A stretch of DNA of 61,742 nt. Source: a virus. This document shows, one piece after another, positions 4,232-46,000 of the stretch. Each line of letters opens with the position of its first letter. The first letter of the stretch is position 1. The notes under the pieces were generated by a model, which was not told the origin of the DNA, searched no databases, and saw only the letters and a list, made by a program, of their open reading frames with translations. Position numbers and translations under genes: made by a program. The stretch lies in IMG/VR virus record IMGVR_UViG_3300037465_000034; one strand, given 5' to 3'.

Positions 4232-4897
4232 ATGACGATTACTACCAACGGGCGGAAAAAAAGTTCGGCCGCCAAGCCGCGCGTGAAGGCCGGCACCAGC
4301 AAGGCAATGGCAGCCCAGCGCAGGGCCCTGTTTACAGAGGCATACCTCACCAACGGCGGCAACGCCACCAATGCCGCGATCGCCGCCGGCTACAGCCCCA
4401 ATGGCGCAGATGTCGTTGGGACTCGGCTACTAGGGGATGTTAGCGTTGCGACAGCCATCGCCGCGCGCCGCGCCGAGGCGCTTGCTGCGGCGCAGCAGAA
4501 CACAGGCGTGACGATCGAGCGGACGCTGCGCGAGCTGGCGCGGCTGGCATATGTCGACCCGCGCCGAATGTTCGACAGCGACGGCAAGATGCTCCAGATC
4601 CATCAGTTGCCAGATGACGTCGCCCCGGCGGTAGCGCAATTCGAACGTGTCGTCGAATACAAGGGCAATGGCGAGGATCGCGTCGAGGCCGGGTACACGA
4701 CAAAGGTCAAATTGTGGGACAAGGTGTCCGCGATCGAGAAGGCAATGAAGCACCTGGGCCTGTTCGAGAAGGACAATGCACAGCGACCACAGACCGCTCC
4801 GGCGGTGTTCGTTGTGATGGGGGTTGAGCCGATGGGGGTTGAGCCAACGGTGGTTGGTGGCGGCTCGGCGGCGCCTGACAAGCCGATGATCCGATGA
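4232..4897 (+). CDS. terS: Terminase small subunit (P27/Terminase_2-like)
   Basis: ..FTEAYLTNGGNATNAAIAAGYSPNGADVVGTRLL...WDKVSAIEKAMKHLGLF. Lies immediately upstream of TerL. Confidence 0.8.
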   Translation: MTITTNGRKKSSAAKPRVKAGTSKAMAAQRRALFTEAYLTNGGNATNAAIAAGYSPNGADVVGTRLLGDVSVATAIAARRAEALAAAQQNTGVTIERTLRELARLAYVDPRRMFDSDGKMLQIHQLPDDVAPAVAQFERVVEYKGNGEDRVEAGYTTKVKLWDKVSAIEKAMKHLGLFEKDNAQRPQTAPAVFVVMGVEPMGVEPTVVGGGSAAPDKPMIR

Positions 4898-9371: not shown

Positions 9372-10756
9372 TGAACAAGATCATCGATATCGACGAGCCC
9401 CTCAAGACCGGATACTGCATCCCCGAGTGGCTGCGCGACGAGCAGATCAAGCTCGCGGTCGAGCGCAAGCTCAAAAGCGTCGAGCCGATGGCGGACACTG
9501 ACGAGCCGGTGGCCGTGGTGTGCTTCGGCCCGAGTCTCAAGGATACCTGGGAGGAAATACGCGCGTTCAGGAAGATCATCACCTGCTCCGGCGCGCACAA
9601 GTTCCTGCTCGAGCGCGGCATCGTGCCCACATGGCACCTGGAGGTTGACCCGCGCCAGCACAAGATCGAGCTGCTCGGAGACCCGCACCCCGGGGTGACA
9701 TACCTGCCATCATCGACGTGCCACCCGAAGTATTTCGATCACCTGCTGCAGCACGTTTCGCCAGCGAACGTGAGGATCTGGCACATCTACGAGAACGACT
9801 ACGAGACCGCGATGAAAATGCCGCGCGGCGAGATGGTCATTACGGGCGGCATCGACGCCGGCAAGCGTTGCATGACGATGGCAAGGTTCTTCGGGCACTG
9901 GAACCAGCACATTTTCGGCATGGACGGCTCTTCCTGCGAATGCACCGCCGACGACGTGCCGATAGTCGGCGAGGGCAAGACCAAGCACGCGGCCCCGCAT
10001 CCGGTGCAGGACAAGACCAAATACAACCTGGTGGAGTATCCGAAGGGCTCCGGGCGCTGGTGGCGCACCACGCCGGCGCTGCTGCAGGCGGCCAAGAACA
10101 CCTGGCACGAACTCGACATGATGCCGACGTTGCAGGCTAGCTTCTACGGTCATGGCCTGGTGCAGGAGATGGCGAAGCACTACGTCCGCAAGCATCCGCG
10201 GCCCAGCGCGATCGCCGCCTTCATGCCGAAACTGATCTCCGATGAGTATCGAGAGCTCAACGCCCGGATGCACCGGGAGAACCTGGCATTCGGCGTGGGC
10301 GGCGGCAAGCACGCCGAGACGGTGACGCGGCTCAAGATCAAGACCGGGGCGGCATCGGTGCTGGACTACGGGGCCGGAAAAGGCTATTTGGCAAAGGCGC
10401 TCAAGTTCCCGATCTGGGAATACGACCCCGCGATCCCTGGCAAGGATCACGCGCCTCGGCCGGCCGAGCTGGTCGTGTGCACCGACGTGCTGGAGCACGT
10501 CGAGCCGGATAAGCTGCAAGCCGTGCTGGACGACCTGCGCCGCGTCACCATCAGGATCGGGTTCTTCGTGATCCACACCGGGCCGAGCTCCAAGAACCTG
10601 CCCGACGGGCGCAACGCGCACCTGATCCAGCAGCCCGAGCCGTGGTGGCGCGAGCAGCTTGGGAGGTTTTTCCAGATCGGCGCAATCAATCAGGCTGGGC
10701 CGCTTCTTTACTGCGTCGTGTCGCCGATGATAGCCGCGCAGCGCAAGGTTGCGTAA
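9368..10756 (+). CDS. Fusion protein: Maf/DUF115 (MptE-like) N-terminal domain plus class I SAM methyltransferase C-terminal domain
   Basis: N-terminal part PVAVVCFGPSLKDTWEEIRAFRKIITCSGAHKFLLERGIVPTWHLEVDPR resembles DUF115. C-terminal part has motif I VLDYGAGKGYLAKAL and VVCTDVLEHVEP. ATGA-coupled to the fibre gene. Confidence 0.6.
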   Translation: MMNKIIDIDEPLKTGYCIPEWLRDEQIKLAVERKLKSVEPMADTDEPVAVVCFGPSLKDTWEEIRAFRKIITCSGAHKFLLERGIVPTWHLEVDPRQHKIELLGDPHPGVTYLPSSTCHPKYFDHLLQHVSPANVRIWHIYENDYETAMKMPRGEMVITGGIDAGKRCMTMARFFGHWNQHIFGMDGSSCECTADDVPIVGEGKTKHAAPHPVQDKTKYNLVEYPKGSGRWWRTTPALLQAAKNTWHELDMMPTLQASFYGHGLVQEMAKHYVRKHPRPSAIAAFMPKLISDEYRELNARMHRENLAFGVGGGKHAETVTRLKIKTGAASVLDYGAGKGYLAKALKFPIWEYDPAIPGKDHAPRPAELVVCTDVLEHVEPDKLQAVLDDLRRVTIRIGFFVIHTGPSSKNLPDGRNAHLIQQPEPWWREQLGRFFQIGAINQAGPLLYCVVSPMIAAQRKVA

Positions 10757-10964: not shown

Positions 10965-13232
10965 GTGAGCATCAGGACGACGATGGGCGAGATGGCCGCT
11001 GACGCAGACGCCGGGCCTTCGCTCGAGGACGAGGCCGCCGAGCAAGAGCGCGAGCAGGCGCTCGCGCTGCGCCGGCAGAAACTCGAGGCGCTCGCGCTGT
11101 CGCTCGCCAAATCGCGCAGCGACGCCATTGCGGCGCGCCTGTCCTCGGGCATCGAAACGGAATGGATGCAGGACGAGGAGTATTACGAAGGCATCGACGA
11201 CGCCAACCGCGGCGACATGGCCGCATGGCGCTCCAAGCCCCCAGGCCAGACCACGGAGAGCGCCGAGCAGCGGGCGCAGGCAGCGAGCGTGTTCATCAAC
11301 ATCACGCGCCCCTACGTTGACGCGGCGGCATCCAGGGTGGGCGACATGCTGCTGCCAACGGACGATCGCGCCTGGGAGATCAAGCCCACGCCCATTCCAG
11401 AGCTCGAAGGCATGGCAAAGGGCAACTTCCCGCCGCAGGTGCTGCGCCAGGCGCTCGCCGCGAACAACGGCAACGCCGATTTGGCGAAGGCCCAACTGCA
11501 CAAGGCCGTGGATCAGGCCGTGGCATCGATGACAGAGGCCAGGAAAAGGGCCGCGTCAGCGCAGTCGCAGATAGAGGACTGGCATGTCGAGTGCCAGTTC
11601 CACAACCACGCGCGGCGCGTGATCGACGACGCCGCAAAGGTCGGAAGCGGCGTGCTCAAGGGGCCGTTCCCGACCAGGAACCGCGGGCTCGCGTTCATGG
11701 ATGGCGCGCTGGTGCTCAAGGACGAGATCCAGCCAGCGAGCATCCGGGTAGATTACTGGAATTTCTATCCAGACCCGGCCTGCGGCGAGAACATCCACAA
11801 CGGGTCGCACTGCTGGGAGCGCGACGACATAAGCAAGAAATCCCTCATGGATCTCATCGATCATCCAGGCTACATGGCCGAGGAAATCATGGCCTGCCTG
11901 GAAGAGGGGCCGATGCGAGCCTCGTCGCAGGCGCCGGAGCGCCAGACGCCGAGCGGCCACAAGCCCGACACCAAGTCGATGTTCGAGATCTGGTATTTCC
12001 ACGGATTGCTCGAGCGCGAAGACCTGGACGCGATCGGATGCGAGTGTGAGCCCGGCGAGCATCCGATCGTGGCGGCCGAAGTCACGATGGTGAACAACCG
12101 CATCATCAAGGCCATTCCTTGCACCATTCCCAACGGCGGGCTGCCCTATGACGTAATGGTCTGGCAGCGCCGCGCCGGGAGCTGGGCTGGCATCGGGGTT
12201 GCGCGCCAGATCAGGACGCCGCAGGAGATCGTGGTCGGCGCCGGGCGCAACCTGCTGGACAACGCAGGCCGCGCCGGCGGCCCGCAGCTCGTCATCCAGC
12301 AGGGCATCGTGGTGCCGCACGACGGCATCTACGAAGTCACGCCCTGGAAAATCTGGCTCGCTGGCACCGACGCCGACCTCGAGCACATCGACAAGGCGTT
12401 CCGGTTCGTCACGATCCCGGCGCTGCAGCAGGAGTTGATGGCGATCATCCAGTTGGGGTTGAAGCTCGCCGAGGATGTCACCGGCCTGCCGCTGCTCCTG
12501 CAAGGACAGAAAGGCTCGTCGCCCGAGACGCTGGGCGGCCAGCAGATGGCGATGAACAACGCGAGCTCCGTGCTGCGCCGCGAGGCGAAGTTGTTCGACG
12601 ACCTCATCACCGAGCCGCACATCCGCCGCTACTACGCATTCCTCATGCTCTACGGAGAGGACGAGCACAAGGGCGACTTCCAGATCGACGCGCGCGGGTC
12701 TTCCGCGCTGGTGCAGCGCGACATCGAGAACCAGGCGATCGCCGAGATGGCGAAGGTGGTGGTGAACCCGATCTTCGGTATCGACCCCAAGAAGTGGGCC
12801 GAGGAGTGGCTGAAGTCCAAGCACCTGGACGCGAAGCGGTTCCAGTTCGACGACGAGAAGTGGCAGCAGGTCGTCTCCAACATGGCGAAGGGCGGAGACC
12901 CGCGCCTGGCGGTGGCGCAGTTGCAGGCCGAATTGAAGGTCAAGATCACGCAGATGGAGCAGGCGTTCGAGGCCGATCAGAATAACCGCGACCGCGAGCT
13001 CAAGATGATGGTCGCGCAGATCGACGCGCAGCTCGCGCAGGCGGGCCTCACCAGCGACCAGCAAAAGGTGCTCGCCGAGATCAAGGGCAGGCTCTCCGAC
13101 ACCGTGCTGCGGCTGCGTGCCCAGCGCGAGATGCAGATCGCCGACCAGCAACAGGAGCGCGCGATCCAGGTCATCGAACCCAGGGCAGAACCCAAGGGCA
13201 AGGCTCCCGACGGCAAGGCTTTCATCCAATGA
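10965..13232 (+). CDS. Portal protein
   Basis: 755 aa. GTG start after GGAGGG. Acidic N-terminus followed by EWMQDEEYYEGIDD. Size and position upstream of scaffold and capsid genes. Confidence 0.75.
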   Translation: MSIRTTMGEMAADADAGPSLEDEAAEQEREQALALRRQKLEALALSLAKSRSDAIAARLSSGIETEWMQDEEYYEGIDDANRGDMAAWRSKPPGQTTESAEQRAQAASVFINITRPYVDAAASRVGDMLLPTDDRAWEIKPTPIPELEGMAKGNFPPQVLRQALAANNGNADLAKAQLHKAVDQAVASMTEARKRAASAQSQIEDWHVECQFHNHARRVIDDAAKVGSGVLKGPFPTRNRGLAFMDGALVLKDEIQPASIRVDYWNFYPDPACGENIHNGSHCWERDDISKKSLMDLIDHPGYMAEEIMACLEEGPMRASSQAPERQTPSGHKPDTKSMFEIWYFHGLLEREDLDAIGCECEPGEHPIVAAEVTMVNNRIIKAIPCTIPNGGLPYDVMVWQRRAGSWAGIGVARQIRTPQEIVVGAGRNLLDNAGRAGGPQLVIQQGIVVPHDGIYEVTPWKIWLAGTDADLEHIDKAFRFVTIPALQQELMAIIQLGLKLAEDVTGLPLLLQGQKGSSPETLGGQQMAMNNASSVLRREAKLFDDLITEPHIRRYYAFLMLYGEDEHKGDFQIDARGSSALVQRDIENQAIAEMAKVVVNPIFGIDPKKWAEEWLKSKHLDAKRFQFDDEKWQQVVSNMAKGGDPRLAVAQLQAELKVKITQMEQAFEADQNNRDRELKMMVAQIDAQLAQAGLTSDQQKVLAEIKGRLSDTVLRLRAQREMQIADQQQERAIQVIEPRAEPKGKAPDGKAFIQ

Positions 13233-31018: not shown

Positions 31019-34000
31019 ATGGGCGCGTTCGACGACTACCTGAACGGGAAGCCGCCGGCCGAGCCGGCGAAGCCTTCTGGCGCCTTCGATCAGATGGTCG
31101 CTGCCGATTCGCAGCGCGGCGACTTCTGGCGCGCGGTCAAGCAGACCTATCAGCAGGTTCCCGAGCTGGCCTACGGCATCACCGCGCTCGGCGCCTCGGC
31201 GATCGAGACTGCGATGGGCGAGGGCGGGCTTGCCACTTCGGCCAAGAATTGGTCGGTCGGCAAGATGCTGGAATGGAAGCACGCCATTCAGGAAACCTCT
31301 AAGGAGAGCGACGACATCAATTTCTCCTGGGAGCGCGCGCGCGAGGGCGATTACGGCGCCCTCGTCGATTGGCTGCAATACGGCGTCGGCTACGGTGTGG
31401 GGCAGGCCAGCCAGATCCTCGCCACCGCAGGGGTTGGGGCCATCGCCGGCAAGATCGGTCTGCGCGCCGCTGTGGACAGGTTCGCGGCTCCCTTGGTCGA
31501 GAAGGAGGCCGAGAGGCTGGTCATGGCCTCGATGGCCGAGAAGGGCGGCAAGGCCACCGCTGAGCAGATCGCCAAGGCGGCAGCCCTGCCGGAAGTCAGG
31601 AAAGCTGCGGTCGGCAGGCTTGCGAGTCAGGCTGGGGCGATCGGTGCCACCGGCGCCTACGCCTTCGGCATGGAGGGTGGTGAGATCGGCGGCGACGTCG
31701 CCGAAAGCAGTGTTTCACGTGGAACACAGCTCACCGGGTCCGAGCTCGCCAAGGCGTTCGGGGCCACCATGCTGGCAGGCACGGTCGAGTTCGCAGGCGA
31801 CCTGCTGGGCCTTGGGGCCATGATGGGCAAGATCCCGGTCGGCAGGAGGCTTGCCGAGGCCACCGGGTTGAAGGGTCGCGCCGCGCGCGGGATCGTTGGT
31901 GGCGCGATGGTTGCGCCGGCCGAGGGGGCGCAGGAGTTCTTTCAGACCGGCATCGAGGAGTGGGGCAAGGGCAAAGAGGAAAGCATGTTGCCCTGGGAAC
32001 AATCCCCAGAAAATCAGCGCCAGGCGTTGAATGCAGCCGCGCTAGGCTTCGTAGCCGGCGGGGTAATGGGTGGGGGTGGTGGCGTCCTGCGGGCCGCAGA
32101 AAAGGCCCGTGGCAGGCCGTTCGTGCCAGCACCAGCCAGGACTGCAGGCGAGACGATTGCGCCGATTCTGGATGCTCCTGACGTGCAGTCGGCCGTGGAT
32201 GCAGCCACGGCCGCCTACGAAAGCGATGTTGGCGCCTCGATCATCGCGCAGGTTCAGGACACCGAGTCGATTCAGGACGGCATCACGCTGGCGGTGGGCG
32301 CGGCGCGCGACGCCGCGGAGCGCGCCGCAACCTCCGGCTTCGCCTACCGCCAGCACCTTGAGCAGCAGGCAGACGCCGCCATAGCCGAGAGCCTCGGCCT
32401 CGAGGCGCGCCAGGCAGCCGAGGAAGCCGCAAGGCCCAAGACGGCCATGCAGCTCGCGCTGGAACGCGCCTTCCAGGTCGCCGCGGAACGTCCGGCCAAG
32501 GCTGCTGCTGCGCCCACCGCTGGCAGGCCAAGCACCAGCGAGGCGAAAGCCTTCGGGCGGCAGATCAAGGAATTGAGCGACGAGGAGCTGGCCGACGTCG
32601 CCGAGCGGCACACCATGTCCGCGCAGCGCGAGGCGGCGCGCGCCGAGTTGACGCACCGCACCGCGGTGCTGATGGCGCGCATCCCCGAGGAAAAGCCCCC
32701 GGAGAAGCAAGCGGCGCCGCCTGTGAGGATCTACGGGCAGTTGCCCGAGGACATGAGCCTCACGCAGTTGCAGAGTGCCGCGCAGCTCCTGCCCAACGGC
32801 AAGCCAAAGAACGTGGCGTTCGCCTATCAAGCTGCTGCGGCACAACGCGAGCTGGCGTTCCGCGAGAAGGTCGGCCAGATCTTCGAGGGCAAGACGGTGG
32901 AGCAGATGTCGGTGGCCGCGCTCGATCGCCTGATCGCCAACCCGACCGCCAAGCGCCAGTTGAAGCTGTTCGCGCAGGCCGAGAAGCGCCGCCGCGCCAA
33001 GGCCGACGCCGACATTCGCCGCCGCATCGCCAACCCCGGCATCGCCGATGAGCTGAAGGCATTCGCCGCTGAAGCCGGATGGGCTCAGAAGGGCGGGTTC
33101 TTGGTGAGGTCCAAGCGCAGCGAGCGCGCGGGCGACGAAACCGTGACCCGCACGCAATGGATCCCGCGGGCAGAGTGGTGGAGAGGCCGCCCTGTCGCCG
33201 AGAACGAGGACTTCTACCGGAAGGCCGTTGCCGACGCCATAGCAGGCAAGCCGTTGGGCGAGAAGCAGAAGCGGGTGGTGAATTTCCTTCTCGGCATGGC
33301 CGAGGAGGTCGGCAGGATGCTGGCCGAAGCCGATGTCGATGGAGTCGTGGACCAGGGGCTGGGGTTCAGCGTGGAAGATGACATGACCCATGAGTCCGTA
33401 GACTTGGCGATCGAGCGCGCCGATCGGCATTTCACCGAGGTCAAAGGACAGATCACGAAGGAGGAAGCCGATGCAATCGAAGACAGGCTCTTTGGGGCCG
33501 ACACGCGACCTGCCGTTCGGCGTGAGGAAGCTCGCGCGGCAGCTATTCCGGCGGAAGCTCGAACAGAACGGGTTGTTGAAGGACAGCGACGCGAACCTGC
33601 CGCCGCAGCCCCGGCAGAGCGAGGCCCGCCTGCCGCAGAAGCCGGCGCAGAACGAGGCAAGATCGTTGTCGCCGGAAAGCCAGCGGCCGGAGGAGTGAGC
33701 GGCGAGCCTGCATCGGATGAGCGCATCGCCGCCGCCAAGCGCAACCTGCGGAAGGCCTTGGACGGCAAACAGGCGTGGGAAGTTCCGCTCAAGAAGTGGG
33801 CGGCAGCGCACGACGCCTATCTCGAGGAGGCGTTCGGCGCCGGTCCAGAGGTTCCAAGGGAAAACGACGAAGAGATCGCCACGCAGCACCTTGAGCACAT
33901 CGAAAGCGCGATCGAGAACGCGCACAAGCCGCCGCGCGCCGCGCTGGCGAGCCACAAGGACATCGACGCCAAGGAGTTCCCGAGGGCGGCCGCGCTCTGG

Positions 34001-37000
34001 AATGAGTATTTCGGCCAACCAAAAGAGAAGGGGGCTGCAGATGCCAGCGCAATACGAAAGGATCAGGGACAGCTATTTGCGGGCGGGCAAGCCGAAGAAA
34101 GAGGCGAAGCGGCTCGCGGCGATGACCTACAACGCGCACCGGCCGAAGGGGGCGAAGCCCGTGGGGCCGCACAGCGACAAGAAGGGGCTCGTCCAGAAGG
34201 CGATGAAGTAGGGTCGAAGGCATGGTATGCCGCCTTACGTCGTGCTGCTCACCAAAATGAGTCGAGGCCCAAAGGCAAGCCCAGCTTGAGCAACAACCTG
34301 GTGCTGGCCTTGATGAGCTTCGCCGACGCAGATAGCAGATGGGCCGAACGCTTCTCATCTGGAAGGACTGACGATGAGTTGAGGCTTGACATCGGCCACG
34401 AGTTCGGCATGCAGGGCGGCGGTTATTCCCAGGCGCACAAGGGCGGCGAAAATCCCAAGTTTTATTTCAGCGCCGAGGGACACATACCAGTAGCGCACGG
34501 CAAGCCTACGCTGCAAGGCAAGGCTCTGATCGACGCGGTGCGGGCATTGTTCAAGATCCCGAAGCGCAAGGCGCAGGCAGCGCAGGTCGAGCGCCGCGTC
34601 GAGCCTACGCCAGAACAACAGGCGATGCTCGATTACGAGCGTGAGTTCGAGGAGGACATTGCCGGTCGCCGCGAGATCGCGCCTGATGATGCCGGGCTCG
34701 ATGAGCAGGCCATGCAGCGCGAGGAGGCAGAGGCAGAGGCGCAGCCGACCAAGCCCACTCCGAAAGCCGAGTCGCGGATCGAGCGCATGCGCGCGGTGGA
34801 TTCCGCCTTGATGGAAGGCGACATCAATTCCGTGGTCGAGTGGATGCGCGACGGCTTCGACGCCACGATCGTCATGGACGCGATTCGCGGCCTTGCCGAG
34901 ACGACGGCCTGGCCGGAGCGGCTGGCCTATGTAGCGAACAGGGCGGCAGAAGTGCTGCGGAGCGCCGATGAGAATGGCGTCGCCGATCTCGCCGAGCGCA
35001 TCCTCAAGCGCGGCTGGACCTACACGACGCACCAGGTCAAGAAGGGCGCGAAGCCTGATGACGTTGACGCCTGGGAGGCGCACCTAGCGCGCCGCAAGGC
35101 ACTGGCAGCGCGCCGCGCCGACATCGACGGGCTGCTCGAGCGCCGCGCCATGAAGCTCGTCGAGGACCGGCTCTACGAGAAGCGCATCAAGCCCGGCGAC
35201 ATGGTTACCTTCAACGCCACAGTCTACGACCGCTACGGCGAAGCGCGCGAGCGCACGACCGCGGAGCTTCGCAAGGGCGTCGGCGGCTATGCGATGAGCG
35301 GCATCGACACCGGCGGCGGCATCCTCAACATCGGCACCGAGGATGTTAGATACCTGACGAAGGCGAGCGAGACGGATCTCGCCGCGCTGCGCGAGCGCGA
35401 GCGGCAGGCATTTATGGAGCAGGACACAGGCGCGGCTCTCGAACGCCTGCGCGCGCCGGAGGGCGTCGGGATCCTGAAAGGCACCGAGTCGGCTGGCACT
35501 CCTGCCGCCCAGCAGCGGTGGATGACGTCGGAAGCTCTCGGCTCCGTCGATGGCATCGTTCTCGGCTACGCCGATGTTCAAGGCACGGATCGCGTCATCT
35601 TCCAGACCGACGATGGCAACCGCTACCTACTGGCACCGCACAGCCTGTTCCCGGTGGAAACAGGTGGCGAGCAGGTCATCCCGCAGCCCTACGCTTCCGG
35701 CATGAGCCGACGACGCGACATGAGGGCCGCGATCGAAAGCGCGGTCGGCGTCGGGGTGGCGGCTGCCTCGGAGAAGCCTGCTCTCGGCGCGAATGTTGAT
35801 GAAACCGTCCTGGCTCGCTACCTGCTCGCCGAGGCGCGCGTCGGCAACCGGATGATGGGGCCGCTCATCATCGACCGGATCTATGGGCCGGAGCATGGCG
35901 AGATGCGCCAGCGCATCATGCAGCGGCTCACCGGCGAGAATGTGTCCAAGGAGAAGTCTGGCGTCGGCGTGGTCAAGGCAGCCCTGTTCAAGCACTTCGG
36001 CATCCAGGGGGATTCGGAGCGCGCGCGCGAGGAGGCGCTGCAGGAAACTCTGGAACGCCTGGCTTACGGCGGGAAGACCGAGCGCGAGGCGCTGGATGCG
36101 GGCTGGGCGAATCTGAGCGCGGAAGAGCGCGCCCAGGTCGAGCGCGAGGTCGGCAGGCACCGCTTCGATGAGAACGCAGTCACCTGGATGCAGGGCGCCC
36201 GCGAGGGCGTCCAGAAGTGGCTGGCATCGGTCAGCGAGTCGGTCAGGGCGGCCTTCCGCAAGTTCGTCGCCTTTCTCGCCGCCGTTGCAGTGGCGCTCAA
36301 CGTCAGCACCGTGCAGGAGGCCGACGCTGTAGCGAGGCCCGCCGCGCAGCAGCAGGAAGTGACGGTGCGCGAGCTGGTCGAAAGACCGAAGGCCGACTTC
36401 GGCTACGCGCGGCCCGGCTGGGCCGCTCGCCTCACGGCCAACTGGATCATGGCAAGCGGCGCTCACGAAGGTCGCAGCTTCCTCGTCGCCGACAAGAACG
36501 CCGGCACGCTCTACGCTTTCGGCTCAGACGGCAAGCTGATCGAGCAGACTGCGGCGCTCTACGGCGAATCGAAGGCAGACGAGTTGACACCAGAGCAGTG
36601 GAAGGTGTCGGTGGACAAGATGCGGACCGCCGACAAGGTGACGCCTGCAGGGCGCTGGACGGTCGGCCTGCAGCCAGATTCCGAGCGCGGCTGGACGATG
36701 GACTTCGAGGGCGGCGAGGGGCTGGCGATCCACGCGGTCTACCTCGGCAACCCGAAAGAGACGCGCGCGCAGCGGCTTGTCACCGAGACGGCCGAGGACA
36801 ACTTCATCACCTACGGCTGCATCAACGTGCCGAAGGACTACTTCGAGCGCGTGCTCAAGCCCAACTTCGGCGACAAGCACGGGCTTTTCATCATTCCGCA
36901 CCAGGAGGCCAATACCGAGCGGGTGCTGGGGATCGTGGCCGCCGACATGGCGCCGCAGCTCGTCGAGCGCAAGGTGACGCTGCCTGCCGGCGCGCCGAAG

Positions 37001-40000
37001 CGCGAGAGGCCATCCGGCCGCCGCCGCAGCAAGGGCAAGTTCCGGTCGCGCGATCTGGACGCGCTCGGCGCGAAGGAGCGCGCCGCTGCCGAGCGCCAGA
37101 TCGAGCGCCGCGGCGCCGACGCTGCGCGCCTGGCGCAGCAACTCGAGCTGCATCAGGGAACGCCGTGGGCGAAGCAGACCATTCAGGGCTTGATCGTCAG
37201 GGCCGCGATCGACGAATACGTCGCTGGGCGCACGCCCGACTTCGCCTCGATGCTGGACAGTCCGCATACGACGAACGCCAAAGCCGCCGCCAAGGCCGGC
37301 GTGGATGGCATCTGGCGCTATCTCATGCAGCGCGGCCTGATCGGCGAGGCTGGCAAGCCAGCGAACAGCGTCAATTCCAGCTTCGCCAACTGCACGCCGT
37401 CGGCCGACTGCGCGAGATTCTGCTACGCGGCGACCGGCAACTACACGGCGCCGAATCCGATCGTGAAGTCGGAGCTAACGAGCTGGGCCGTGGAGAACAA
37501 CCCGCAGCGCGCCGGCGACCAGATCGCGCACGAATACAAGACCACCGCCGAGTTCTACGTCAAGAAGGCACTGCGCCTGTTTGACAAGGGCGACGGCACG
37601 ATGAATTGGATCCCTGTGATACAGCGCCTGAACGCGCATGGTATCCGGGTTCAGGTGTTCAGCAAGAACCCCGACTTTTTGCGCGCCGTGCCGAAGATGA
37701 ACCTGCGGCTGCTCTCTGCCGACAAGTCCAACCTGGGGATGGTGCGGGCCAACCCTGATCTGCCGGTCGCCTTCGTCTACTCGGATGCAAGCCAGATTGC
37801 CTTCCTCAACGAGATCCGCGACCGCGTGCAGGTCATCCTGCCAATTAAGCTCGGGTCGAGACTGCTCTCGAAGGCCGAACTCGAAGAGCTGCCGGCCTGG
37901 ACGCGGCCCTACCAATGCCCGGTCAACAACGGCCACCGCAAGATTGGCCGCCAGCCGAATCAGTGGACCTGCGGGCGCTGCGACTACCGCGGCGGGGTTG
38001 GGTGCTTCTACGGCACGCCCAGCGCGAAGGCGTTGGAGGCGATTGATCGCCCAGCGGAGTATGATAGCGAAACCAGGTCGCTAGTTGAGGAGTTGACCCA
38101 TGCGAGCCGACAGCTCAGACCGACAGAACGTCGAAAACTACTTGGAGAGATCGATCGCCTCATATCTGCAATACGGGCTGGCGTTGACATCGGAACAGCG
38201 GGCGGCAGTGCGCGCGAAAATGCTGCGGCGGTTCAAGGAGATGATCGAGGGCTGGGACGAGGTGTCTATCCGATCACTTTCCATCCCTCCCGAGTTCGTG
38301 AAACTCGCCCCGAAGCGGATCTTGCGCGGTTTGAGGGAGAGGGCGGACGACTAGGGGCCGAGCGTGAGGTATCCGAAGATCAAGGAGAAGCGCCTCCTGG
38401 CGCGCGCGAACCGGCCGCCGAAGGTGGGGACGTTTACTCCGTCGCCGCGCTACAGGGTGCGCCGGGCGAAGCAGCGCAGGCCAGTGACGACCAACTCAAG
38501 CTGACCGTCGCCGAAGGCGGCACAGCAGCTCGCTTCAGCCTCGAGGATGGCGCCGCAGAGAGCGTCGGCGCAAGGCTGCTGGGAAGCGTCGTCACAAAAA
38601 CCGGGGAGCCGTGGCTGCGACCGGGCGATGAGAAGCGCGTCTATCACGGCACCAGTAGGTCATTCAATAACTTCGAGGCTCAATACGGTCTGCCGTGGTT
38701 CTATTTCTCGGAAAAGCACGAGATGGCAGAGAAGTTCGCTGCCTCAGACGAGCCCATTCCGCCGACACCAGACAAGCCGGAGCGCCCAGCAGATCGCAAG
38801 GTGACGATCGCAACGAAGGACGGCCCCGCCAATGTTGATGCATGGGACGTTGGCGTGCCCGGTCTTGTCGTCACCTATCAAGTGAAGTCTGGCTTATACA
38901 GCGTCACGCACGAGGCATCAGGATACGCCGCTGGTGGCGCATCCGAGTATTTCGTCGCCGTCATGGAAGCAGCCAGGCGGCTTGGCAGAGCTGGCAAGAA
39001 GCTCGGTGTCGATTGGAGGCGTGGCGCAGAGTTCTTAGACGCGCTGCCGCGAGACGAAAAGCGCAAGCTGGCCGTCGCTGCTCGCATTGTCGAGCCCGAG
39101 CAGCCAGACCCAATCGCCGCGATGTTCGGCTACAAGGGCCGCGCTGGCATCGGCGTCGGCAGCAACATTCGCCCGGCTTACCTTGCGATCAAGAAACCGA
39201 TCGATCTGCGCGGATTGCGCGGCGGCACGCATCAGACGCCGAGGCAATTGCTGGAAGCTCTAGCCAGTCACGGCATCAACCTGACGATTCGGGACATGCC
39301 GTTCTCGCATCGCAAGGTCTATCAGATGCTCAACAGTCCTAGCGTGGCCGAAAAGATCATGGCGGTGGCCCAGGAGCGCGGATACGACGGCCTGATTTTC
39401 AACGACGAGTTCGATGCCAGGCTGAAGGCCGTCAGTTACATCGTGTTCAGTCCGTCCCAGGTGATCCCGGCGTTCGTGCCGCGTTTCAGCCGCAACGAGC
39501 GCGGGTCAGAACTAGAGCGCCGCGGCGCGCGCGTCGCGGCGATGGTGAAGGCGCTGGAGAAGCGCGTCGATCGCGCCTATCGGCGTGGCGATCCTCGCGC
39601 AGAGGATTGGGACGCCATTCTCTCGGAGCTCAAAGCCATTGAGGAAGGCATCGCCGAGGCGCTGCAGGAGGGCTCGGTCGAGGATGTTGGCGAGCCATCT
39701 GCCGATGATGTTGGAGAACCCGCAGGCATCGAAGAGAACCTTGTCAGGTTGTATTGGGAATACCTGCAGGGCGGCCTGGTGCGCGGCGGGGAGCAGGAAA
39801 CCATAGCCGCCATGCGTGATGCGCTGTTCGCGCCCGAGGGCATCGTCGGATCAACGAAGATGCAGCCGCGCACAGACGCGACGGATGAAGAAGTTCTGGC
39901 TGCGGCGAAGGATGCGTTCGAGGCATGGGCGGCGCGACAGGCGCGCAATGCCGGCGCCTACTACACCACCGACGCCAAGGGCCAGCCGCTCTTGCACCTG

Positions 40001-43000
40001 GACACGGTGCAGCTCGTCGATCCACAGCCATTCCCTGGCGCGGTGCGCGGCGGGCAGGCCTACCAGCACTCGATCTACCGCGACGGCAGGCCGGTGGGCG
40101 TTGTGTCGCTGGTGTGGGAGCAGGGGCGCGTCAAGTCGCTCTTGCACATCCTCACCTACGACGAGGAGCAGGGCCGCGGGGTGGCGGAAGCGGTGGTGCG
40201 TGGCATCCTCATGCACAACCGCGGCGGGCTGCACATCATGTCGATTCAGGACACGGCGCGCGGCTTTTGGGAGAAAATGGGGACTGAGTATCTGGAGACC
40301 GAGGGGACAGAACCCGATGGCTACATCACACCGGAGAGTTACCGTGCAGCGCGGGGTGCTGAGGGAGATCAGGAGGCGCGACGCAGAGCGCGCGAAGCGG
40401 GAACGCGCCCAGCCGCCGTCGGAGAAGGCGCGCCTCGACCTGGCGACGCTCGATTCTCTCCGGCAGACGAAGCACTAGATGTAGACCGCGCGCTCAACGA
40501 CATCCGCCGTGCCGGCACCACAAGATATGACGAGCAGGCACAAAGCGACCTCGCCGTCCTTGAGCGCGAGCTGGGGCCGTTCAGTTCGACGGGTCGGGTT
40601 CCTCGCGGTCTTTACAGACCTGTTCGCCTGCCTGACGATTCATACCTTCAGGAGCTCGCCGGGACCTTCGGAAGGCGAGTCCTCGGGATCAGCTTCGACG
40701 AATCCAGAGCACCACCGAATTCCCCGCTTCTGACGGATTGGCAGGGCGTCAGCGTCGGCGCCGATTCCGGCATCATCGGCATCCGCTACGGCGCGAGGCG
40801 CCCGTCGATCGCGCTCACCATGCACGAACTGTCGCATGAGATTGAGCGCGAGGATCCCGAGACGTTCAACGAGCTGGTCGAGGCGCTGCGGCCATATATC
40901 CGCCAGGAGGAATACGGCCGGCGCTTTGCTGCCGTATATCGCGGGATGCCGGATGCCCGCATTCGCGGCGAATTTGTCGCGGAGGTGATGAGCGACGGCG
41001 CGATGTATCCCAAGTTTTGGGATTACGTCGGCCAATACAGCCCGGAGCTTCTGAGAAAGCTGGTCGGCGCCGTGCGCCGGCTGCTCGATCGCGTGGCGCG
41101 CGGGCTGGGCATGGGCTACAAGTGGAAGACCGCGCAATACGTCACCGACTTCGACGCCGTGATGAACGAGGCGGCGCGCGCCCTCGCCAAGTATCACGAC
41201 AAGCGCGCTCTCGCCGATATGCAGCGCGCCGAAGAGCGGCGGCATCCTGCCTTCCAGCGCGACGACCTGCCTGCGATGGACCTGGACGCGGACCGCCCGT
41301 TCCAGACCGTGGACAGAATCGAGGACATCGAGTGGAAGGAGATGATGGATTACTTCTCGGCGAACGTGAACGAGCGCCGGGTGCTGATCTACAAGCCGAT
41401 GCTGCCCGAGGATCTGACGTTATCGAAGGCGCACCGTGGTGGCGGAAGAACATGGTGGCACGCCGTCGTGGCGGGCAGCAGCAAGCACCTGAGAAACGGC
41501 GGCAAGGCTGACAGCTTCGAGGATGCCGCGCGCATCGCCTGGGAAGCATTGACACTGCTACCGCCGGTTACTGACACGGTAGAGACCCGCTCTGCGATGT
41601 ATAGCAAGCGCATGGTGGCGAAAATGGGTGGGCGCCGTGGCAAGCAATACGGCTATTACCACCGCAACACCGGCCGCGAGTCCGAATACATCGAGGGCGA
41701 AGAGCTGGTCGATGGCGTGGAGCCTAGCGAAGGCGACATCGAGCGCGGGCCAGACTTCTCGCGCGAAGGCACGGCAGCGCCAGTCTTCTACTACGCGCTG
41801 GACCGCCAGCTCGTCGCCTCTCCCATGAAGGCCGGCCCGGCGAAAGCCTGGCGCGACTACATCAAGGGATTGGTAGCGAAGGGTCTTGTCAAGCAGGACG
41901 AGGTTAATTGGAGCGGCATCGACGACCTGCTGCAAATCGACACCGAAGGGCATCGCATCCAGCGCGAAGAGCTGCTGTTCTACCTGCGCCAGATGAACAA
42001 GGAGATCGGGGATGTCGTCGCCGGCGAAGCCATTGACGCAGAATTCGAGGGTGGTGGTGCGCCAAGCGCCGCCCACAGGGCCAGCAATAAGGTGAATGAG
42101 CTGCGAGTTCAGCTCGATGCGCTGGGCTATGACGTAGAGTTCGAGGCGAACGGCCCGGACGCCGGGATGCCGCTTTATGTGCTCCGGCGCTCGGATAGGT
42201 CGGCGTTCTCGTTCGGTGACAGGTTCGCGCTCGGAGACGCGCTGCACGTTGATGAGCTGCCAGACGGCCCGCGTGAACTCGCCGAAGATATTTATCAGGA
42301 GGCGCAAAAAGCCTTGGAGGACGAGGACGGAATCGTCGCCCAACACCAGCAATCGTTGCAACCAAGGTATGTGAAGACGCGCTACGAGACCTACGGCCTG
42401 CCGGGATCTGAGCCGGGCACCTACCGCGAGATCCTGATGACGCTGCCATCGTTCACGATGGAAGGCGTCGCTGGCCGCGTCGTGTTCGAGGGGCGCTGGC
42501 GGGAAGCTGTCGTCGATGAGTTCATGAGCGAGATCGCCGAAGAGCATCCAGAGGTGTATTTGGCGGCCATCGAGGAAGATGGCGTTCGGAACATCGTCGA
42601 GTTCAGTGGGGCAGGAGAAACAGCGCGCGACAGCATCGACAATTTCGCCAGGATGAATAGTGGCGATGTCACCTACACGAAGGGCGCTGGCCCGGTGCCG
42701 ATGTTCACTTCAGCCCACTGGCAGCAAGGCAACGTCGTGGCGCACATCCGCGCCGATGTCGTGAAGGCCGAGGATGGCAAGAGCTATCTGCGCGTGATCG
42801 AGATTCAGTCCGATTGGGCTCAGCGCGCGCGCAAAGTCAGAAAGCAAGAGGTCGTCCGCGTCGCCACTGAAAAAGGCATCAGCCGCGAGGAAGCCGACAA
42901 GCTGGTGGCGAGGGACTTCGGATTCTCCGAGCCCCGAGCGATCAGGGACGCTTCTGACAAGGTGATCGTCACCGAGCGCCACTACCGCGATCTCGTCAAG

Positions 43001-46000
43001 AAAATGCTCGCTCAGATCACCGAGCACGACTACTTCGGCTTCGAGGATGAACATGGGGCTTTGGAGGACATCACCTACAATCCGATCACCTGGGAGCAGA
43101 GTTGGCAGACTCAGCGTAAAGTCGTCCCCGCTGAGTTCCGTCGCCTCGCCAAGGAATATCTTGAAGCCTACGATGCGTGGCGGCGGGCGACGCGCGAACA
43201 GGTTGCGATCTCGCCGTATCCTAAGGCGCCGTTCGTGGACAAGACAGAGGCGTGGGTGTCGCTCGCGGTCAAGCGCGCGCTGCGCTACGCCGCCGACAAG
43301 GGGCTCGCAGGCGTGGTCTTCGCCAGCGGCAAGCAGAATCTTTCCCTCTACGAAGGCATCCGACGGCGGGTCAAGCGCATCGAGTGGCAGCCGGAGAAGA
43401 GGCAGCTCAACATCGTGTTCAAGCCAACCCGCGACGGGCATGGTCTGCAAAACGCGGAGCCCGACCGCCTGGTAGAAGCTGTCGGCCCCAAGGAGTTGCC
43501 GGAATACGTTGGCGAGAACATCGCCAAGCAACTGCTCGAGCCAACACCATCCGCAGGCACGGATGCCTTCAACGTGACCAAGAAGGATGGTTCGGTGTGG
43601 CGCGTTGTCGAGGGCGAGAAGCTTCGTGTCGGCGGCGAAGGGCTAGTAGCTTTCTACGACAAGCTGCTGCCAGCCGTCGCATCCGGCGTCGTGAGGAAAC
43701 TCGGCGGCAAGCTCTCCAAGGTGACGACGCAAAAGAAAGAAGGATCGCCGCTCGCCAAAAAAGAGATGACCGATACGGTGGTCGCCTATATGGCAGGGGA
43801 CATCAGCGCAGAGGAATTCATCGACAACACCGGCTTGAACATGACGGTGAGCGACGTCGAGGCGGACGAGGACATGAATGGAGCATGGGACAGGCACGAC
43901 GCGCGAACGAGGACAGTCGCCAAAACGATAGCCAATCGCCTCACGCGGCAACACGGCCCCGCGCGCTCAACGACTTACAACGCGGTCGAGCTCACGCCGG
44001 AGATGCGCGACAAGGCGCTGGGCGGCCTGCCGGCGTTCAGCCCATACTACACGCCAGATCTAAAGATGCGCCTGGCCAAGGGTAGAGAATCGCCAGATGA
44101 GTGGGTGAAAGGGTTGCAGAAAAAATACCCGGTGACCTGGCGCGAAGTCGGCGAGCGCGAGCTGAATTCACTTGAGCGCGAGATCGGGCTGCGCCCGATC
44201 CCGTCCGAGCATGAACCAGGCCACGGCCCTGCGCTCGAGGACAGGTATGCGTCGTTCAGGTGGGTGACGGATGCGCGCTACGCGCTACGAAACGCCGGGG
44301 AACCGGAGCCTCCGGCCGGCATCGAGCGGCCGTTGTTCAGCCGCGAGGAGCGCGAGCCGCGCGAGGCCGCGCCAGTGGCGGCTGGGATTCGCAAGAAGTT
44401 CGAGACGGCCGGAAATTTTGACAAGACGACCATCAGGCAATACGACGACTACGTTGCCGGTGCGCCAGAGCTGGCGTCGGCGCAAGCCGGGCCGATCACC
44501 GTTCGCGTGATGCGTGACACCAATGGCATCTGGTTCGGGCCAGGCTATTTCATACTCACGCACCGCGACTTTCCGCAATACCCGGTGCCGGCGCACAGGT
44601 GGATGGACGAGTGGGAACCCTATATGCAGTCCGTCGAGGGCGTCTCCCGGGCCGACTACGCGAAACTGCCGCAGGAGGAGCGCGCGGCGATCGAGGCCAG
44701 ACGCCAGGCGAGGACCTACGCAGAGAAGCAATTCTTCGGCGATCTGGCCGAGTTCTACTGGAACGACAGGTGGCAAAAGCGCCTCGACGAGAAGTTCAAG
44801 AAGCGCACACAAGGAGTCGCCGGCCACGATTGGGTCAAGGCCCGCAGCGCCGCCGAGAACGACTACTGGAAGGCGCTGGTCTACGACGAGCTGGGCCAGC
44901 GCGCGTTCACGCCGCACGACTACCCGCCGGCCGACAAGCCGAATCATCCAGTGCGGAAGATCGTCCACGGCATCAAGGACAACATGGAGTCCGCGATTCG
45001 CGAGGCTCGCGCCATGATCGCGGAGAAAGGCTGGAAGTCCGTCGCCGAGGCCTTCTCCTGGTTTAGCGATGATCGCTCTCACGGCGGCGAGGACGTAGCC
45101 GAGGCCGCGCGCGCTGTGGTCAAGCAGTTCGGCGGCACCGAAAGCACGGCGGACCCCTTCGATTTCGTGACGCGAGTCCTGACTGACGCTGAGGCCGAGC
45201 CTGTTCTGAGCGCCTACACCGAGGCCGAGCTGCGCGCCAAGGAGCGCCGCGAGAAGGAAGGCAAGCCGGTGCCGACGCCGACCACGGGACCGGAGCCGCC
45301 ACTGCTGACGACGCCAGAAGGCGTGGCGCCCGCGCGCTTTGGAGAGGTGCCGAAGAGCCCGACCGGTCAGGGCAGCCTGTTCAGCCGCGAGACGAGGCGC
45401 GCCCGGCGCCGTGGATCCGATGTGCGATTCAGCCCGATGGAGGCGATCGGTGCGAGCGGTGTGCGCGGCGACCACGAGGACGGCCTGGCGCGTCGCGGCA
45501 GCAATTTCGTGCGCGACCTGCTGCACAGCTCGGGCAAGTTGTCCTGGTGGTCCAGAACCGTCGGCACTCCGCAGCACGTTGCCGAGACGAACGCCGAGTT
45601 CCGGCCCGTGTTCGACGAGGGGCAAGCCTTCATTCACGACGTCAGCCGCTTCGCCAACGAGGCCGCTGACGCCGCGAACGGGGATCCGAACGACCCGAAC
45701 GCCATGCACATCCTCCCTCGCATCGAGCAGTTCATGGACTTCCTCAAGAAGCACGCCAGCAACGAGGACCAGGAGCGGGTCATGGGCGCGCTGATGACGG
45801 GAACGCTGTGGGGCGGCGGCGACCCGCTGCAGGGCCGTATCTGGACCGACGAGGAGCTGCGCGCCGGCAGGGAGGTCGATGGCGACATCCGCCTGCCGGC
45901 CTTCACGCCGATGACGGAGGCGCAGATCAAGCTCTACCGCCAGGCGCTCAACTCGACGCGCGTGAGCTTGGACAACACCGCGAAGTCGATGATCGCGCGC

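What the first reader, a model, noticed from the sequence alone, without database searches (positions are those of the whole stretch)
38100..38504. Embedded genes s3 and s3b between the Cys-rich and ART-like modules, in a locally lower-G+C patch
A stop codon in the +1 frame (38094-38096) is followed by GAGGAG (38087-38092), 7 nt, then ATG at 38100. This opens an 84-codon ORF: MRADSSDRQNVENYLERSIASYLQYGLALTSEQRAAVRAKMLRRFKEMIEGWDEVSIRSLSIPPEFVKLAPKRILRGLRERADD. It has good G/C-ending codon usage. The giant frame over the same bases uses mostly A/T-ending codons and encodes a featureless linker (..RQLRPTERRKLLGEIDRLISAIRAGVDIGTAGGSARENAAAVQGDDRGLGRGVYPITFHPSRVRETRPEADLARFEGEGGRLGAE..).

Nine nucleotides after the TAG, a GTG in the same frame opens a 46-codon, extremely basic ORF running to 38504, again with almost all codons ending in G/C. 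The patch is visibly less G+C-rich than its surroundings. That is compatible with an inserted small-gene module over which the giant frame has been kept open.
Basis: seen in the sequence. Interest (0 to 1): 0.8.

Follow-up and report, generated by a model that had tools for sequence, protein, structure and literature searches.

The report
Hidden small gene inside giant phage gene
A small, previously uncatalogued protein gene (s3) sits in a second reading frame inside a linker of a 5,767-codon phage gene and is conserved across about 30 distant relatives, so it is a real hidden gene; the second ORF (s3b) is probably a by-product of base composition.

Summary
The coordinates are correct: GAGGAG at 38087-92, ATG at 38100, an 84-codon +1 ORF ending in TAG at 38352-54, then a 46-codon GTG ORF (s3b).

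In this window alone the open frame is not unusual (P=0.18). The real anomaly is that giant-frame GC3 drops to 0.42, against 0.80±0.04 expected.

Relatives settle the question. Thirty fetched loci (G+C 41-70%) carry a homologous +1 ORF at the same place, just after the Zn-ribbon end of a Cys-rich module. Most have an ATG and a Shine-Dalgarno core (24/31 vs 9% background).
- Substitutions shift towards the s3 wobble position (chi-square P=5e-13).
- pN<pS in the s3 frame in all 18 pairs tested.
- Both frames stay open, and both stay more alike, than the other frame alone would force.
- Free-standing copies lie beside a bacterial tRNA-His. There s3 is intact and the "giant" frame is broken.

So s3 is a genuine embedded gene for a small helical-hairpin protein. 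It matches no Pfam, PHROG or PDB entry. Its function is inferred only; my best guess is a trans-acting partner of the giant virion protein.

s3b has no homologue and looks compositional. The low-G+C patch is modest, and the giant-frame linker is not featureless.

The parts
31019..48322 (+). Host gene: a giant polyvalent-type virion protein gene (5767 aa) whose frame is read through the s3 region.
   Evidence: ORF list. Pfam ART-PolyVal E=1.8e-10, above its cut-off. In relatives the frame stays open for >800 codons past the overlap.
37046..38090 (+). Cys-rich module of the giant protein (CX5CX3C motif, beta/alpha region, C-terminal Zn-ribbon-like CxxC...GxGC at 37970-38005). s3 always follows it.
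   Evidence: Alignments A1/A3 show invariant Cys residues. Weak Pfam GP88 hit. L37Ae-type Zn-ribbon match E=0.0013. The AF2 model is confident only in the beta/alpha part.
38087..38092 (+). Shine-Dalgarno sequence GAGGAG, 7 nt upstream of the s3 ATG.
   Evidence: Read directly. An SD core is present upstream of 24 of 31 s3 homologues, against 9% of background ATGs, P=2e-19.
38100..38354 (+). s3: an embedded +1-frame gene of 84 codons plus TAG. It encodes a small alpha-helical hairpin protein from a family that is not catalogued.
   Evidence: Homologous ORFs at the same place in 30 loci. pN<pS in 18/18 pairs. Substitution shift P=5e-13. AF2 pLDDT 80. No Pfam, PHROG or PDB match.
38117..38242 (+). 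Doubly constrained core. In the s3 frame it reads DRQNVENYLERSIASYLQYGLALTSEQRAAVRAKMLRRFKE. In the giant frame it reads RPTERRKLLGEIDRLISAIRAGVDIGT...
   Evidence: Giant-frame third-position identity peaks here at 0.47-0.54, against about 0.36 in the module. 38157-38201 is about 93% identical to L001, while third positions elsewhere differ at 60% of sites. The symmetric codon-redraw test shows both frames are constrained.
38364..38504 (+). s3b: a 46-codon GTG ORF in the same +1 frame. It is not supported as a gene.
   Evidence: No homologue in 50 loci. The region is absent in L001. GC3 is as expected from giant-frame composition, and openness has P=0.28.
39155..39463 (+). ART-PolyVal domain of the giant protein, the downstream module in this phage. 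In relatives a different module follows s3.
   Evidence: Pfam hit. Downstream identity collapses to about 20% in pairs whose upstream module is 91-100% identical.

Best explanation
s3 (38100-38354) is a genuine protein-coding gene. It is embedded in the +1 frame of an inter-module linker of a giant polyvalent-type virion protein gene.

Shown:
- The ORF, its ATG and an SD-like core recur at the same position in about 30 relatives spanning 41-70% G+C.
- Its protein is under purifying selection.
- The giant frame over it is also kept open and is also constrained.
- Free-standing copies of the gene exist.

Inferred, mode of expression: ribosomes start independently at the internal SD/ATG on the giant gene's late mRNA. 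They make a protein of about 60-120 aa whose conserved core is a two-helix hairpin (motif [YF][LF]xRW[TI]HS[WY][VL]x[YF][GS]xx[LM]TxxQ[KR]).

Inferred, function (about 0.45 of the probability mass): it acts in trans as a partner or assembly-type factor of the Cys-rich module, or of the giant protein it is always linked to. The embedding guarantees co-expression.

Inferred, origin: a small independent gene lay between two virion-protein genes. These were fused by reading across it in another frame, so the linker is the younger reading.
For: - Same-place +1 ORFs occur in L001-L007, L014-L032, L041-L048 and L053.
- The +1 frame is open beyond expectation in low-G+C loci (P=0.0004-0.03). Fisher combination over 16 clades gives P=5e-5.
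- Differences by giant codon position are 378/280/795 in the upstream module and 173/132/162 inside s3 (P=5e-13). In close pairs the fastest position is the s3 wobble.
- NG86 gives omega 0.14-0.83 in the s3 frame in the pairs where it could be computed, against 0.57-2.1 for the giant frame on the same bases.
- A synonymous-site conservation peak lies at 38117-38215.
- s3-frame identity is 0.245 against 0.131±0.005 expected from the giant protein alone.
- SD enrichment has P=2e-19.
- The free-standing homologue P0007, beside tRNA-His, has an intact ORF with pN 0.145 and pS 0.75 against phage copies. The overlapping 'giant' frame there has at least 3 stops.
- On short contigs, gene callers chose this frame 17 times.
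- For the link to the upstream module: the downstream module is swapped right after s3 in L018/L031 (aa identity 100%/95%/20%) and L002/L003 (91%/62%/22%).
- For retention: one mutation that is synonymous in the giant frame would kill the ATG, yet at least 16 clades keep it.
Against: - There is no expression data of any kind.
- In the window alone the ORF is not longer than chance allows.
- The function is pure inference. AF2 gives a generic helical hairpin with no Foldseek match (E>1).
- The free-standing copies sit on 1-3 kb contigs with no Cys-rich module in view. That fits an independent accessory role as well as a partner role.
- In several close pairs the s3 segment diverges faster than both flanks, which is more typical of accessory or conflict genes.
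- L044 lacks the ORF, and L008, L009 and L010 have only unrecognisable +1 ORFs there.
- The codon-redraw tests remove shared nucleotide ancestry, so related sequences inflate the observed identities somewhat.
Confidence: 0.8

Rival explanations
1. s3 is real, but it is an independent accessory gene such as a counter-defence or host-takeover 'moron'. It merely rides in a mutation-tolerant linker and has no functional tie to the giant protein.
For: - Free-standing homologues lie in an island next to tRNA-His and a PrtN-family gene.
- The s3 segment diverges faster than both flanks in L042/43, L017/20 and L007/21.
- Its C-terminal tails are variable, acidic and Pro-rich.
- Many embedded viral proteins are suppressors of host defence (review PMC8227390).
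- The host gene class is itself a conflict system (PMC5512222).
Against: - Accessory genes are usually patchy. This one is kept at one fixed position behind one module in at least 16 clades, although a mutation silent in the giant frame could remove it.
- It stays with the upstream module when the downstream module is exchanged.
Confidence: 0.3
2. s3 is a chance ORF. The +1 frame is open because the DNA is G+C-rich, and its G/C-ending codons only mirror G-starting codons (Gly/Ala/Glu/Asp/Val) of a linker.
For: - Within the window, P(open)=0.18 and s3 GC3 equals the compositional expectation.
- For s3b this is the best explanation.
Against: - It does not explain giant-frame GC3 of 0.42 against 0.80±0.04.
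- It does not explain ORFs kept in loci of 41-50% G+C (P down to 0.0004).
- It does not explain the conserved ATG and SD, the substitution pattern, or the intact free-standing copies.
Confidence: 0.03
3. The conserved thing is a nucleic-acid element (an RNA structure or a binding site) inside the giant gene, not a second protein.
For: 38157-38201 is about 93% identical between the window and L001, although the neighbouring module is only 53% identical at the protein level.
Against: - Differences concentrate at the s3 wobble position, and pN<pS in the s3 frame.
- The frame is kept free of stops from a conserved ATG.
- There is no Rfam match.
- The free-standing copy keeps the ORF at 72% aa identity while pS is saturated.
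Confidence: 0.03
4. Recoding or an annotation artefact. Either s3 is reached by a ribosomal frameshift and is part of, or a C-terminal variant of, the giant protein. Or the giant ORF is really two genes with s3 between them, and the linking frame is open by accident.
For: - Phage structural genes do use programmed frameshifts (established knowledge; PMC5009743 is listed).
- In distant relatives L011-13 and L033-38 the Cys-rich gene does end in a stop and the next gene starts in the +1 frame.
Against: - +1-frame stops lie 1 and 5 codons upstream of the ATG here, and within 0-5 codons in the ten loci examined, although several others (L014, L016, L022, L042/43) have a longer stop-free run upstream. 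A conserved ATG and SD point to independent initiation.
- With the s3 protein held fixed, the giant frame is open far beyond chance (P<=0.004 in 10 loci; Fisher P=7e-14).
- The giant frame is more conserved than s3 alone would force.
- It is broken exactly where no giant gene exists.
Confidence: 0.04

Closest known systems
Phage lambda Rz/Rz1 (embedded spanin genes; established knowledge)
   Same: A small gene lies wholly inside a larger gene of a dsDNA phage, on the same strand in the +1 frame, with its own start. The two products are made from one mRNA.
   Different: Rz1 is an outer-membrane lipoprotein with a signal sequence and a lipobox Cys, and it sits in a lysis cassette. s3 has no Cys, no signal peptide and no hydrophobic segment. 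It lies in a virion-protein gene. There is no sequence or fold similarity.
PhiX174/G4 overlapping genes (B in A, E in D; cited in PMC8227390)
   Same: Out-of-frame embedded genes whose two frames both code.
   Different: Those occur in tiny ssDNA genomes under capsid size limits. Here the genome is a dsDNA phage of at least 60 kb, and the overlap sits in a linker of a 17-kb gene.
Hepadnavirus polymerase spacer / preS-S overlap (Pavesi's modular model; PMC8227390)
   Same: The tolerant linker ('spacer') of a multidomain protein is read across another gene in a different frame. The proposed origin is a short gene lying between two genes that later became one. This is the best analogue of the origin inferred here.
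   Different: It is a eukaryotic reverse-transcribing virus with unrelated proteins. The direction of overprinting here is inferred only from codon-position G+C and from free-standing homologues.
Polyvalent proteins of phages and conjugative elements (Iyer et al. 2017, PMC5512222)
   Same: The host gene is of this type: a giant multi-module protein with an ART-PolyVal domain and swappable modules.
   Different: That paper's text contains no mention of 'overlapping', 'frameshift' or 'cysteine'. Embedded genes are not part of the described architecture.
Programmed-frameshift products of phage structural genes (lambda G/GT, T7 10A/10B; established knowledge)
   Same: A second product is made from an alternative frame within a late structural operon.
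   Different: Those lack an independent start and continue from the upstream frame. s3 is bounded by stops and has its own SD and ATG.

Membership tests
Same-strand out-of-frame embedded (overlapping) gene | An ORF wholly inside another coding sequence, in a different frame on the same strand. | tested here: met
   38100-38354 lies in frame +1 of 31019-48322.
Same-strand out-of-frame embedded (overlapping) gene | Both frames are kept open in relatives beyond what the other frame's protein would allow. | tested here: met
   Codon-redraw tests give Fisher P=5e-5 for the +1 frame and P=7e-14 for the giant frame over 16 clades.
Same-strand out-of-frame embedded (overlapping) gene | Purifying selection acts on the embedded protein. 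| tested here: met
   pN<pS in 18/18 pairs. The position shift has P=5e-13. Identity is 0.245 against 0.131±0.005. The free-standing copy has pN 0.145 and pS 0.75.
Same-strand out-of-frame embedded (overlapping) gene | The embedded gene has its own translation-initiation signals. | tested here: met
   ATG in nearly all loci and an SD core in 24/31, against 9% background. This is sequence-level evidence only.
Same-strand out-of-frame embedded (overlapping) gene | The product is detected (Ribo-seq or proteomics). | not testable with these tools
   No cultured relative exists in INPHARED or PLSDB, and no expression data are held.
Rz1-type embedded spanin | A lipoprotein signal peptide with a lipobox Cys, and a host gene that is a membrane-anchored spanin in a lysis cassette. 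| tested here: not met
   The s3 sequence has no Cys and no hydrophobic N-terminus (translation). The host gene is a polyvalent virion protein.
Programmed ribosomal frameshift product | The alternative frame is continuous with the upstream frame, with no intervening stop and no independent start. | tested here: not met
   +1-frame stops lie at 38082-84 and 38094-96. They lie within 0-5 codons upstream of the ATG in the ten loci examined, though several other loci have a longer open run upstream.
Polyvalent protein (host gene) | A very large multi-module phage protein carrying conflict-type domains such as ART-PolyVal. | tested here: met
   The protein is 5767 aa and matches ART-PolyVal at 42.2 bits against a cut-off of 31.2. 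Modules are exchanged between relatives.
Any catalogued protein family for s3 (Pfam, PHROGs, PDB, BFVD) | A significant match by sequence profile or by fold. | tested here: not met
   Pfam and PHROGs find nothing shared by members. Foldseek best hits are E=3.2 against PDB and E=1.0 against BFVD.
Immunity/antitoxin to the ART toxin module | Strict genetic linkage to the toxin domain it neutralises. | tested here: not met
   s3 stays with the upstream Cys-rich module. The downstream module varies: ART-like in some relatives, HExxH peptidase in L003, L006, L048 and L053.

The most novel reading that the evidence does not exclude
Module boundaries of phage polyvalent giant genes may routinely hide small, independently translated genes in a second frame. 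s3 would be the first well-supported case. Two more codon-position flips containing +1 ORFs lie in this same gene, at 33471-33698 and about 34041-34211.

On this reading, the giant genes were built by reading across pre-existing small genes. s3 and the linker helix encoded by the same bases might even bind each other, forming a helical bundle that controls folding, packaging or release of the Cys-rich module. Bacterial islands would have captured s3 as a decoy against these phages.
Probability: 0.25. Interest if true: 0.85.

Novelty: new variant of a known kind. Interest (0 to 1): 0.66.

Why it matters
Gene callers forbid fully embedded genes. As a result this conserved family is invisible in every long contig, including the GenBank record LR796839.1. 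It was called only by accident on short fragments, and it has no name and no Pfam or PHROG entry.

The case shows that a mutation-tolerant linker of a giant virion protein can carry a second gene that is the more strongly constrained of the two. It offers a phage counterpart of the hepadnavirus spacer/preS arrangement. It also gives a concrete model of gene fusion by reading across a small gene.

It gives a clean experimental handle as well. Single bases can knock out s3 without changing the giant protein. Finally, it warns that synonymous recoding or domain swapping of such giant genes may destroy a hidden gene.

Tried and rejected
- blastn and tblastn of the region, of s3 and of three versions of the Cys-rich module against INPHARED phages and PLSDB plasmids found no match. 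No cultured or annotated relative exists.
- Pfam and PHROGs searches on s3 and on 25 family members found nothing consistent.
- Rfam found nothing in 37500-39000.
- The sigma-70 scan found no + strand promoter upstream of s3, so I assume s3 is expressed from the giant gene's mRNA.
- Foldseek of the s3 model against PDB and BFVD gave only generic helical matches with E>1.
- AF2 of the Cys-rich module with 4 sequences reached pLDDT 53. Its PDB search gave only weak TIM-barrel-like partial hits, which are not usable.
- The third protein search, with the module profile, returned only 2 hits.
- I considered and rejected five readings: a chance ORF, an RNA element, a frameshift product, two separate genes, and an ART immunity protein (see rivals and membership tests).
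- s3b as a gene is rejected.
- An s3 paralogue elsewhere in the window is rejected. hmmsearch hits only 38097-38351.
- tblastn of the second embedded-ORF candidate against phages found no match.
Full report
**1. The observation**

The window is a 65% G+C tailed-phage genome. It has a large terminase at 4894-6267 and an SU10-type portal at 10965-13232. It also has one ORF of 5767 codons, 31019-48322.

That ORF carries an ART-PolyVal domain at about 39155-39463 and a weak GP88-like match at about 37360-37690. It is therefore a 'polyvalent' giant protein in the sense of PMC5512222.

All the coordinates in the finding are correct:
- GAGGAG at 38087-92, a 7-nt spacer, then ATG at 38100.
- 84 codons ending at TAG 38352-54.
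- +1-frame stops at 38082-84 and 38094-96.
- GTG at 38364, opening 46 codons that end at TGA 38502-04.

Codon-position G+C flips. It is 0.75/0.57/0.42 at 38099-38278, against 0.68/0.47/0.80 for the whole gene.

**2. Chance, judged from the window alone**

Keeping the giant protein and redrawing its codons leaves the +1 frame open over the s3 span in 18% of trials. In addition, 16 of 159 +1-frame runs in this gene are at least as long.

s3's GC3 of 0.77 is what the giant protein's first codon positions give anyway (0.75±0.02).

What is abnormal is the giant frame's own GC3 over these bases: 0.42 against 0.80±0.04.

**3. Relatives**

A protein search found one relative, UFOVP891_63 (P0001, locus L001), at 53% identity. 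Its giant-frame sequence is conserved through the first half of s3 (…LxSAIRAGVDIGT…). Taken alone, that looked like the refuting case.

However, L001 also has an ATG-initiated +1 ORF at the same spot: MPLDPFHQENVDNYLLRWTASYLQYGPALTSEQR…. Bases 38157-38201 are about 93% identical to L001, whereas third positions in the neighbouring module differ at 60% of sites.

Pattern scans of IMG/VR, metagenomes and GTDB genomes gave 45 more loci. Look-ups of called proteins added L047-L053.

Thirty fetched loci (27 distinct sequences, G+C 41-70%) carry a homologous +1 ORF of 54-119 codons. It starts 19-43 codons after the Zn-ribbon-like motif CxxCD..GG.GC that ends the Cys-rich module. The giant frame then runs on for more than 800 codons in nearly all of them.

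The core motif is [YF][LF]xRW[TI]HS[WY][VL]x[YF][GS]xx[LM]TxxQ[KR].

Exceptions:
- L044 has no such ORF.
- L008, L009 and L010 have +1 ORFs there that the profile does not recognise.
- In L011-13 and L033-38 the Cys-rich gene ends in a real stop and a different gene follows.

**4. Is the +1 frame coding?**

- (a) Openness. In low-G+C relatives, P is 0.0004-0.03. Fisher combination over 16 clades gives P=5e-5.
- (b) Start signals. An SD core lies 5-17 nt upstream of 24 of 31 starts, against 9% of other ATGs (P=2e-19).
- (c) Where substitutions fall. In nine independent pairs, differences by giant codon position are 378/280/795 in the upstream module and 173/132/162 inside s3 (chi-square P=5e-13). 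In close pairs (L004/5, L017/20, L042/43, L007/21) the fastest position is giant position 1, which is the s3 wobble.
- (d) Nei-Gojobori estimates. pN<pS in the s3 frame in 18 of 18 pairs, with omega 0.14-0.83 where computable. The same bases read in the giant frame give 0.57-2.1.
- (e) Across 26 loci, giant-frame third-position identity peaks at 0.47-0.54 in 38117-38215, against about 0.36 through the module.
- (f) A symmetric test on a 41-codon gap-free core of 20 representatives. s3-frame identity is 0.245, against 0.131±0.005 expected if only the giant protein were conserved. One caveat applies: redrawing codons also removes shared nucleotide ancestry, so the excess is somewhat inflated by related sequences.
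- (g) No Rfam family matches.

**5. Is the giant frame real across s3?**

Yes.
- With the s3 protein fixed, the giant frame is open with P<=0.004 in ten loci (Fisher P=7e-14).
- Its identity is 0.221 against 0.142±0.005 expected from s3 alone.
- It shows a recurrent amphipathic pattern, LLxE[VL]DxL[LI]…D…G.

The region is therefore truly doubly coding, with s3 the more strongly constrained reading. The linker is not featureless.

**6. A natural experiment**

P0007 (87 aa, 72% identical to the L016 phage copy) lies about 0.4 kb downstream of a chromosomal tRNA-His. It sits between unnamed small ORFs, with a PrtN-family gene on the opposite strand beyond the downstream one. It is seen on three contigs from different samples.

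There is no Cys-rich module upstream on these contigs. The frame corresponding to the giant frame has at least 3 stops. s3 and its TAAGGAGG-type SD are intact, with pN 0.145 and pS 0.75.

L052 has a tandem second copy that is a pseudogene.

**7. s3b and the 'patch'**

s3b has no counterpart in any locus (tblastn E>1). Its region is a gap in L001. Its GC3 of 0.89 equals the 0.88 expected from a linker that is 60% Gly/Ala/Glu/Asp/Val, and its openness has P=0.28. Giant GC3 there is 0.60 against 0.78±0.06, a mild dip that also occurs elsewhere in the gene. I treat s3b as a compositional by-product.

The low-G+C patch is modest and is confined to the first half. s3 is not a recent insertion. It is older than the divergence of lineages ranging from 41% to 70% G+C.

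**8. What the protein is**

AF2, using 14 sequences returned by the protein search, gives pLDDT 80 and pTM 0.68. The model has two long helices (residues 5-26 and 31-49) forming a hairpin, followed by short helices.

Foldseek finds nothing against PDB or BFVD (E>1). Pfam and PHROGs find nothing.

The profile search of 5.8 billion proteins returned only 17 unnamed proteins, almost all on short contigs where the caller could not see the giant ORF. An exhaustive phmmer search returned one. In L001's record only the giant gene is called.

**9. How it most likely works**

Shown: s3 is a conserved, selected, separately bounded ORF with an SD and an ATG.

Inferred: it is translated by internal initiation on the late mRNA of the giant gene, since no + strand promoter match was found.

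Function is inference only. I favour a trans-acting partner or assembly-type factor of the Cys-rich module or the giant protein (about 0.45), for three reasons:
- The gene has been kept at one position behind that module in at least 16 clades.
- A single mutation that is silent in the giant frame could abolish it.
- It stays with that module when the downstream module is swapped. Amino-acid identity upstream/inside/downstream is 100%/95%/20% in L018/L031 and 91%/62%/22% in L002/L003.

The main rival is an independent accessory or counter-defence gene (about 0.3). It is suggested by the free-standing island copies, by faster divergence than both flanks in some pairs, and by the general rule that embedded viral proteins are often defence suppressors (PMC8227390).

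Origin is also inferred. The giant frame has the aberrant codon-position G+C. s3 has free-standing homologues. Distant relatives end the Cys-rich gene with a stop. By the codon-usage and phylogenetic criteria reviewed in PMC8227390, s3 would be the older reading and the linker the overprinted one. On that view, two virion genes were fused across a small gene.

**10. Comparison with what is known, and novelty**

The principle, a same-strand +1 embedded gene, is known from lambda Rz/Rz1 and phiX174 (established knowledge). The closest analogue of the architecture is the hepadnavirus polymerase spacer over preS/S (PMC8227390).

s3 is not a member of any of those families. It has no lipobox and no membrane segment, so it is not Rz1-like. 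It is bounded by stops and has its own start, so it is not a frameshift product. It is not linked to the ART module, so it is not an immunity protein.

Neither the polyvalent-protein paper nor four full-text literature searches turned up an embedded gene in such proteins.

I rate it a new variant of a known kind. The protein family is new, the host context is new, and the embedded frame is the more constrained one.

**11. Limits**

- There is no expression evidence and no cultured relative.
- Function is unknown beyond inference.
- My statistics are pairwise or use redrawn codons rather than a tree.
- The s3 profile was built from many of the loci it then 'finds'. Independent confirmations are L020, L031, L047-L053 and the 17 database proteins.

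Noticed in passing
window 33471-33698 (+1 frame of the giant gene): A second ATG-initiated embedded ORF of 75 aa shows the same codon-position flip (its GC3 is 0.88, giant-frame GC3 is 0.48). It is not an s3 paralogue, has no Pfam or PHROG hit, and is not covered by the fetched loci.
   Followed up: partly
window ~34041-34211 (+1 frame; inside flip patch 33989-34288): The +1 frame reads MPAQYERIRDSYLRAGKPKKEAKRLAAMTYNAHRPKGAKPVG…, which looks like a small basic phage protein. It has a weak PHROG hit (phrog_32268, E=0.0066) that starts exactly at this Met, and no tblastn match in INPHARED.
   Followed up: partly
window 40289-40560: A third patch shows high G+C at giant position 1 and lowered GC3. 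The +1 frame there contains stops and has no long ORF, so the patch is probably compositional.
   Followed up: partly
L049 2816-3079, L050 183-446, L051 489-752, L052 472-987: Free-standing s3 homologues lie in an island beside chromosomal tRNA-His, which follows a SurA/PpiD-like gene and tRNA-Val. The island has small unnamed genes and a PrtN (pyocin activator) family gene on the opposite strand. L052 has a tandem second copy with an in-frame stop. The island could be a satellite, a prophage end or a defence island.
   Followed up: partly
L018 vs L031; L002 vs L003; L003 vs L016 (just 3' of the s3 ORF): Homology between otherwise near-identical giant genes breaks immediately after s3 (aa identity 100% to 20%, and 91% to 22%). 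The end of the s3 overlap therefore marks a module-exchange junction.
   Followed up: partly
window ~38285-38305 (giant frame GVYPITF); same place in L001-L005, L016, L047, L048, L053: A giant-frame motif, R-R-[VT]-I-P-I / VxPIxF, recurs near the 3' end of the s3 overlap in several clades. It may be a processing or docking site of the polyvalent protein. It is destroyed in the free-standing copies.
   Followed up: no
window 37046-38090: The Cys-rich module has an invariant CX5CX3C (NCxPSxDCAK[FY]CYA), alternating beta/alpha elements (KALRLFDKGD, VQIFSK, LRLLS.D, LPVAFVY, VQVILPVK) and a C-terminal Zn-ribbon. It looks like a metal or Fe-S enzyme on a partial TIM-like barrel, but nothing reached significance.
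   Followed up: partly
window ~36479-36844 (giant frame): A weak YkuD (L,D-transpeptidase) match (E=0.0083, below the cut-off) lies just upstream of the Cys-rich module. This suggests a cell-wall-acting module in the giant protein.
   Followed up: no
window 9368-10756: A gene between the 642-aa ORF and the portal combines an MptE-like (DUF115-type) domain with a methyltransferase domain. That pairing is unusual in a phage head-gene region.
   Followed up: no
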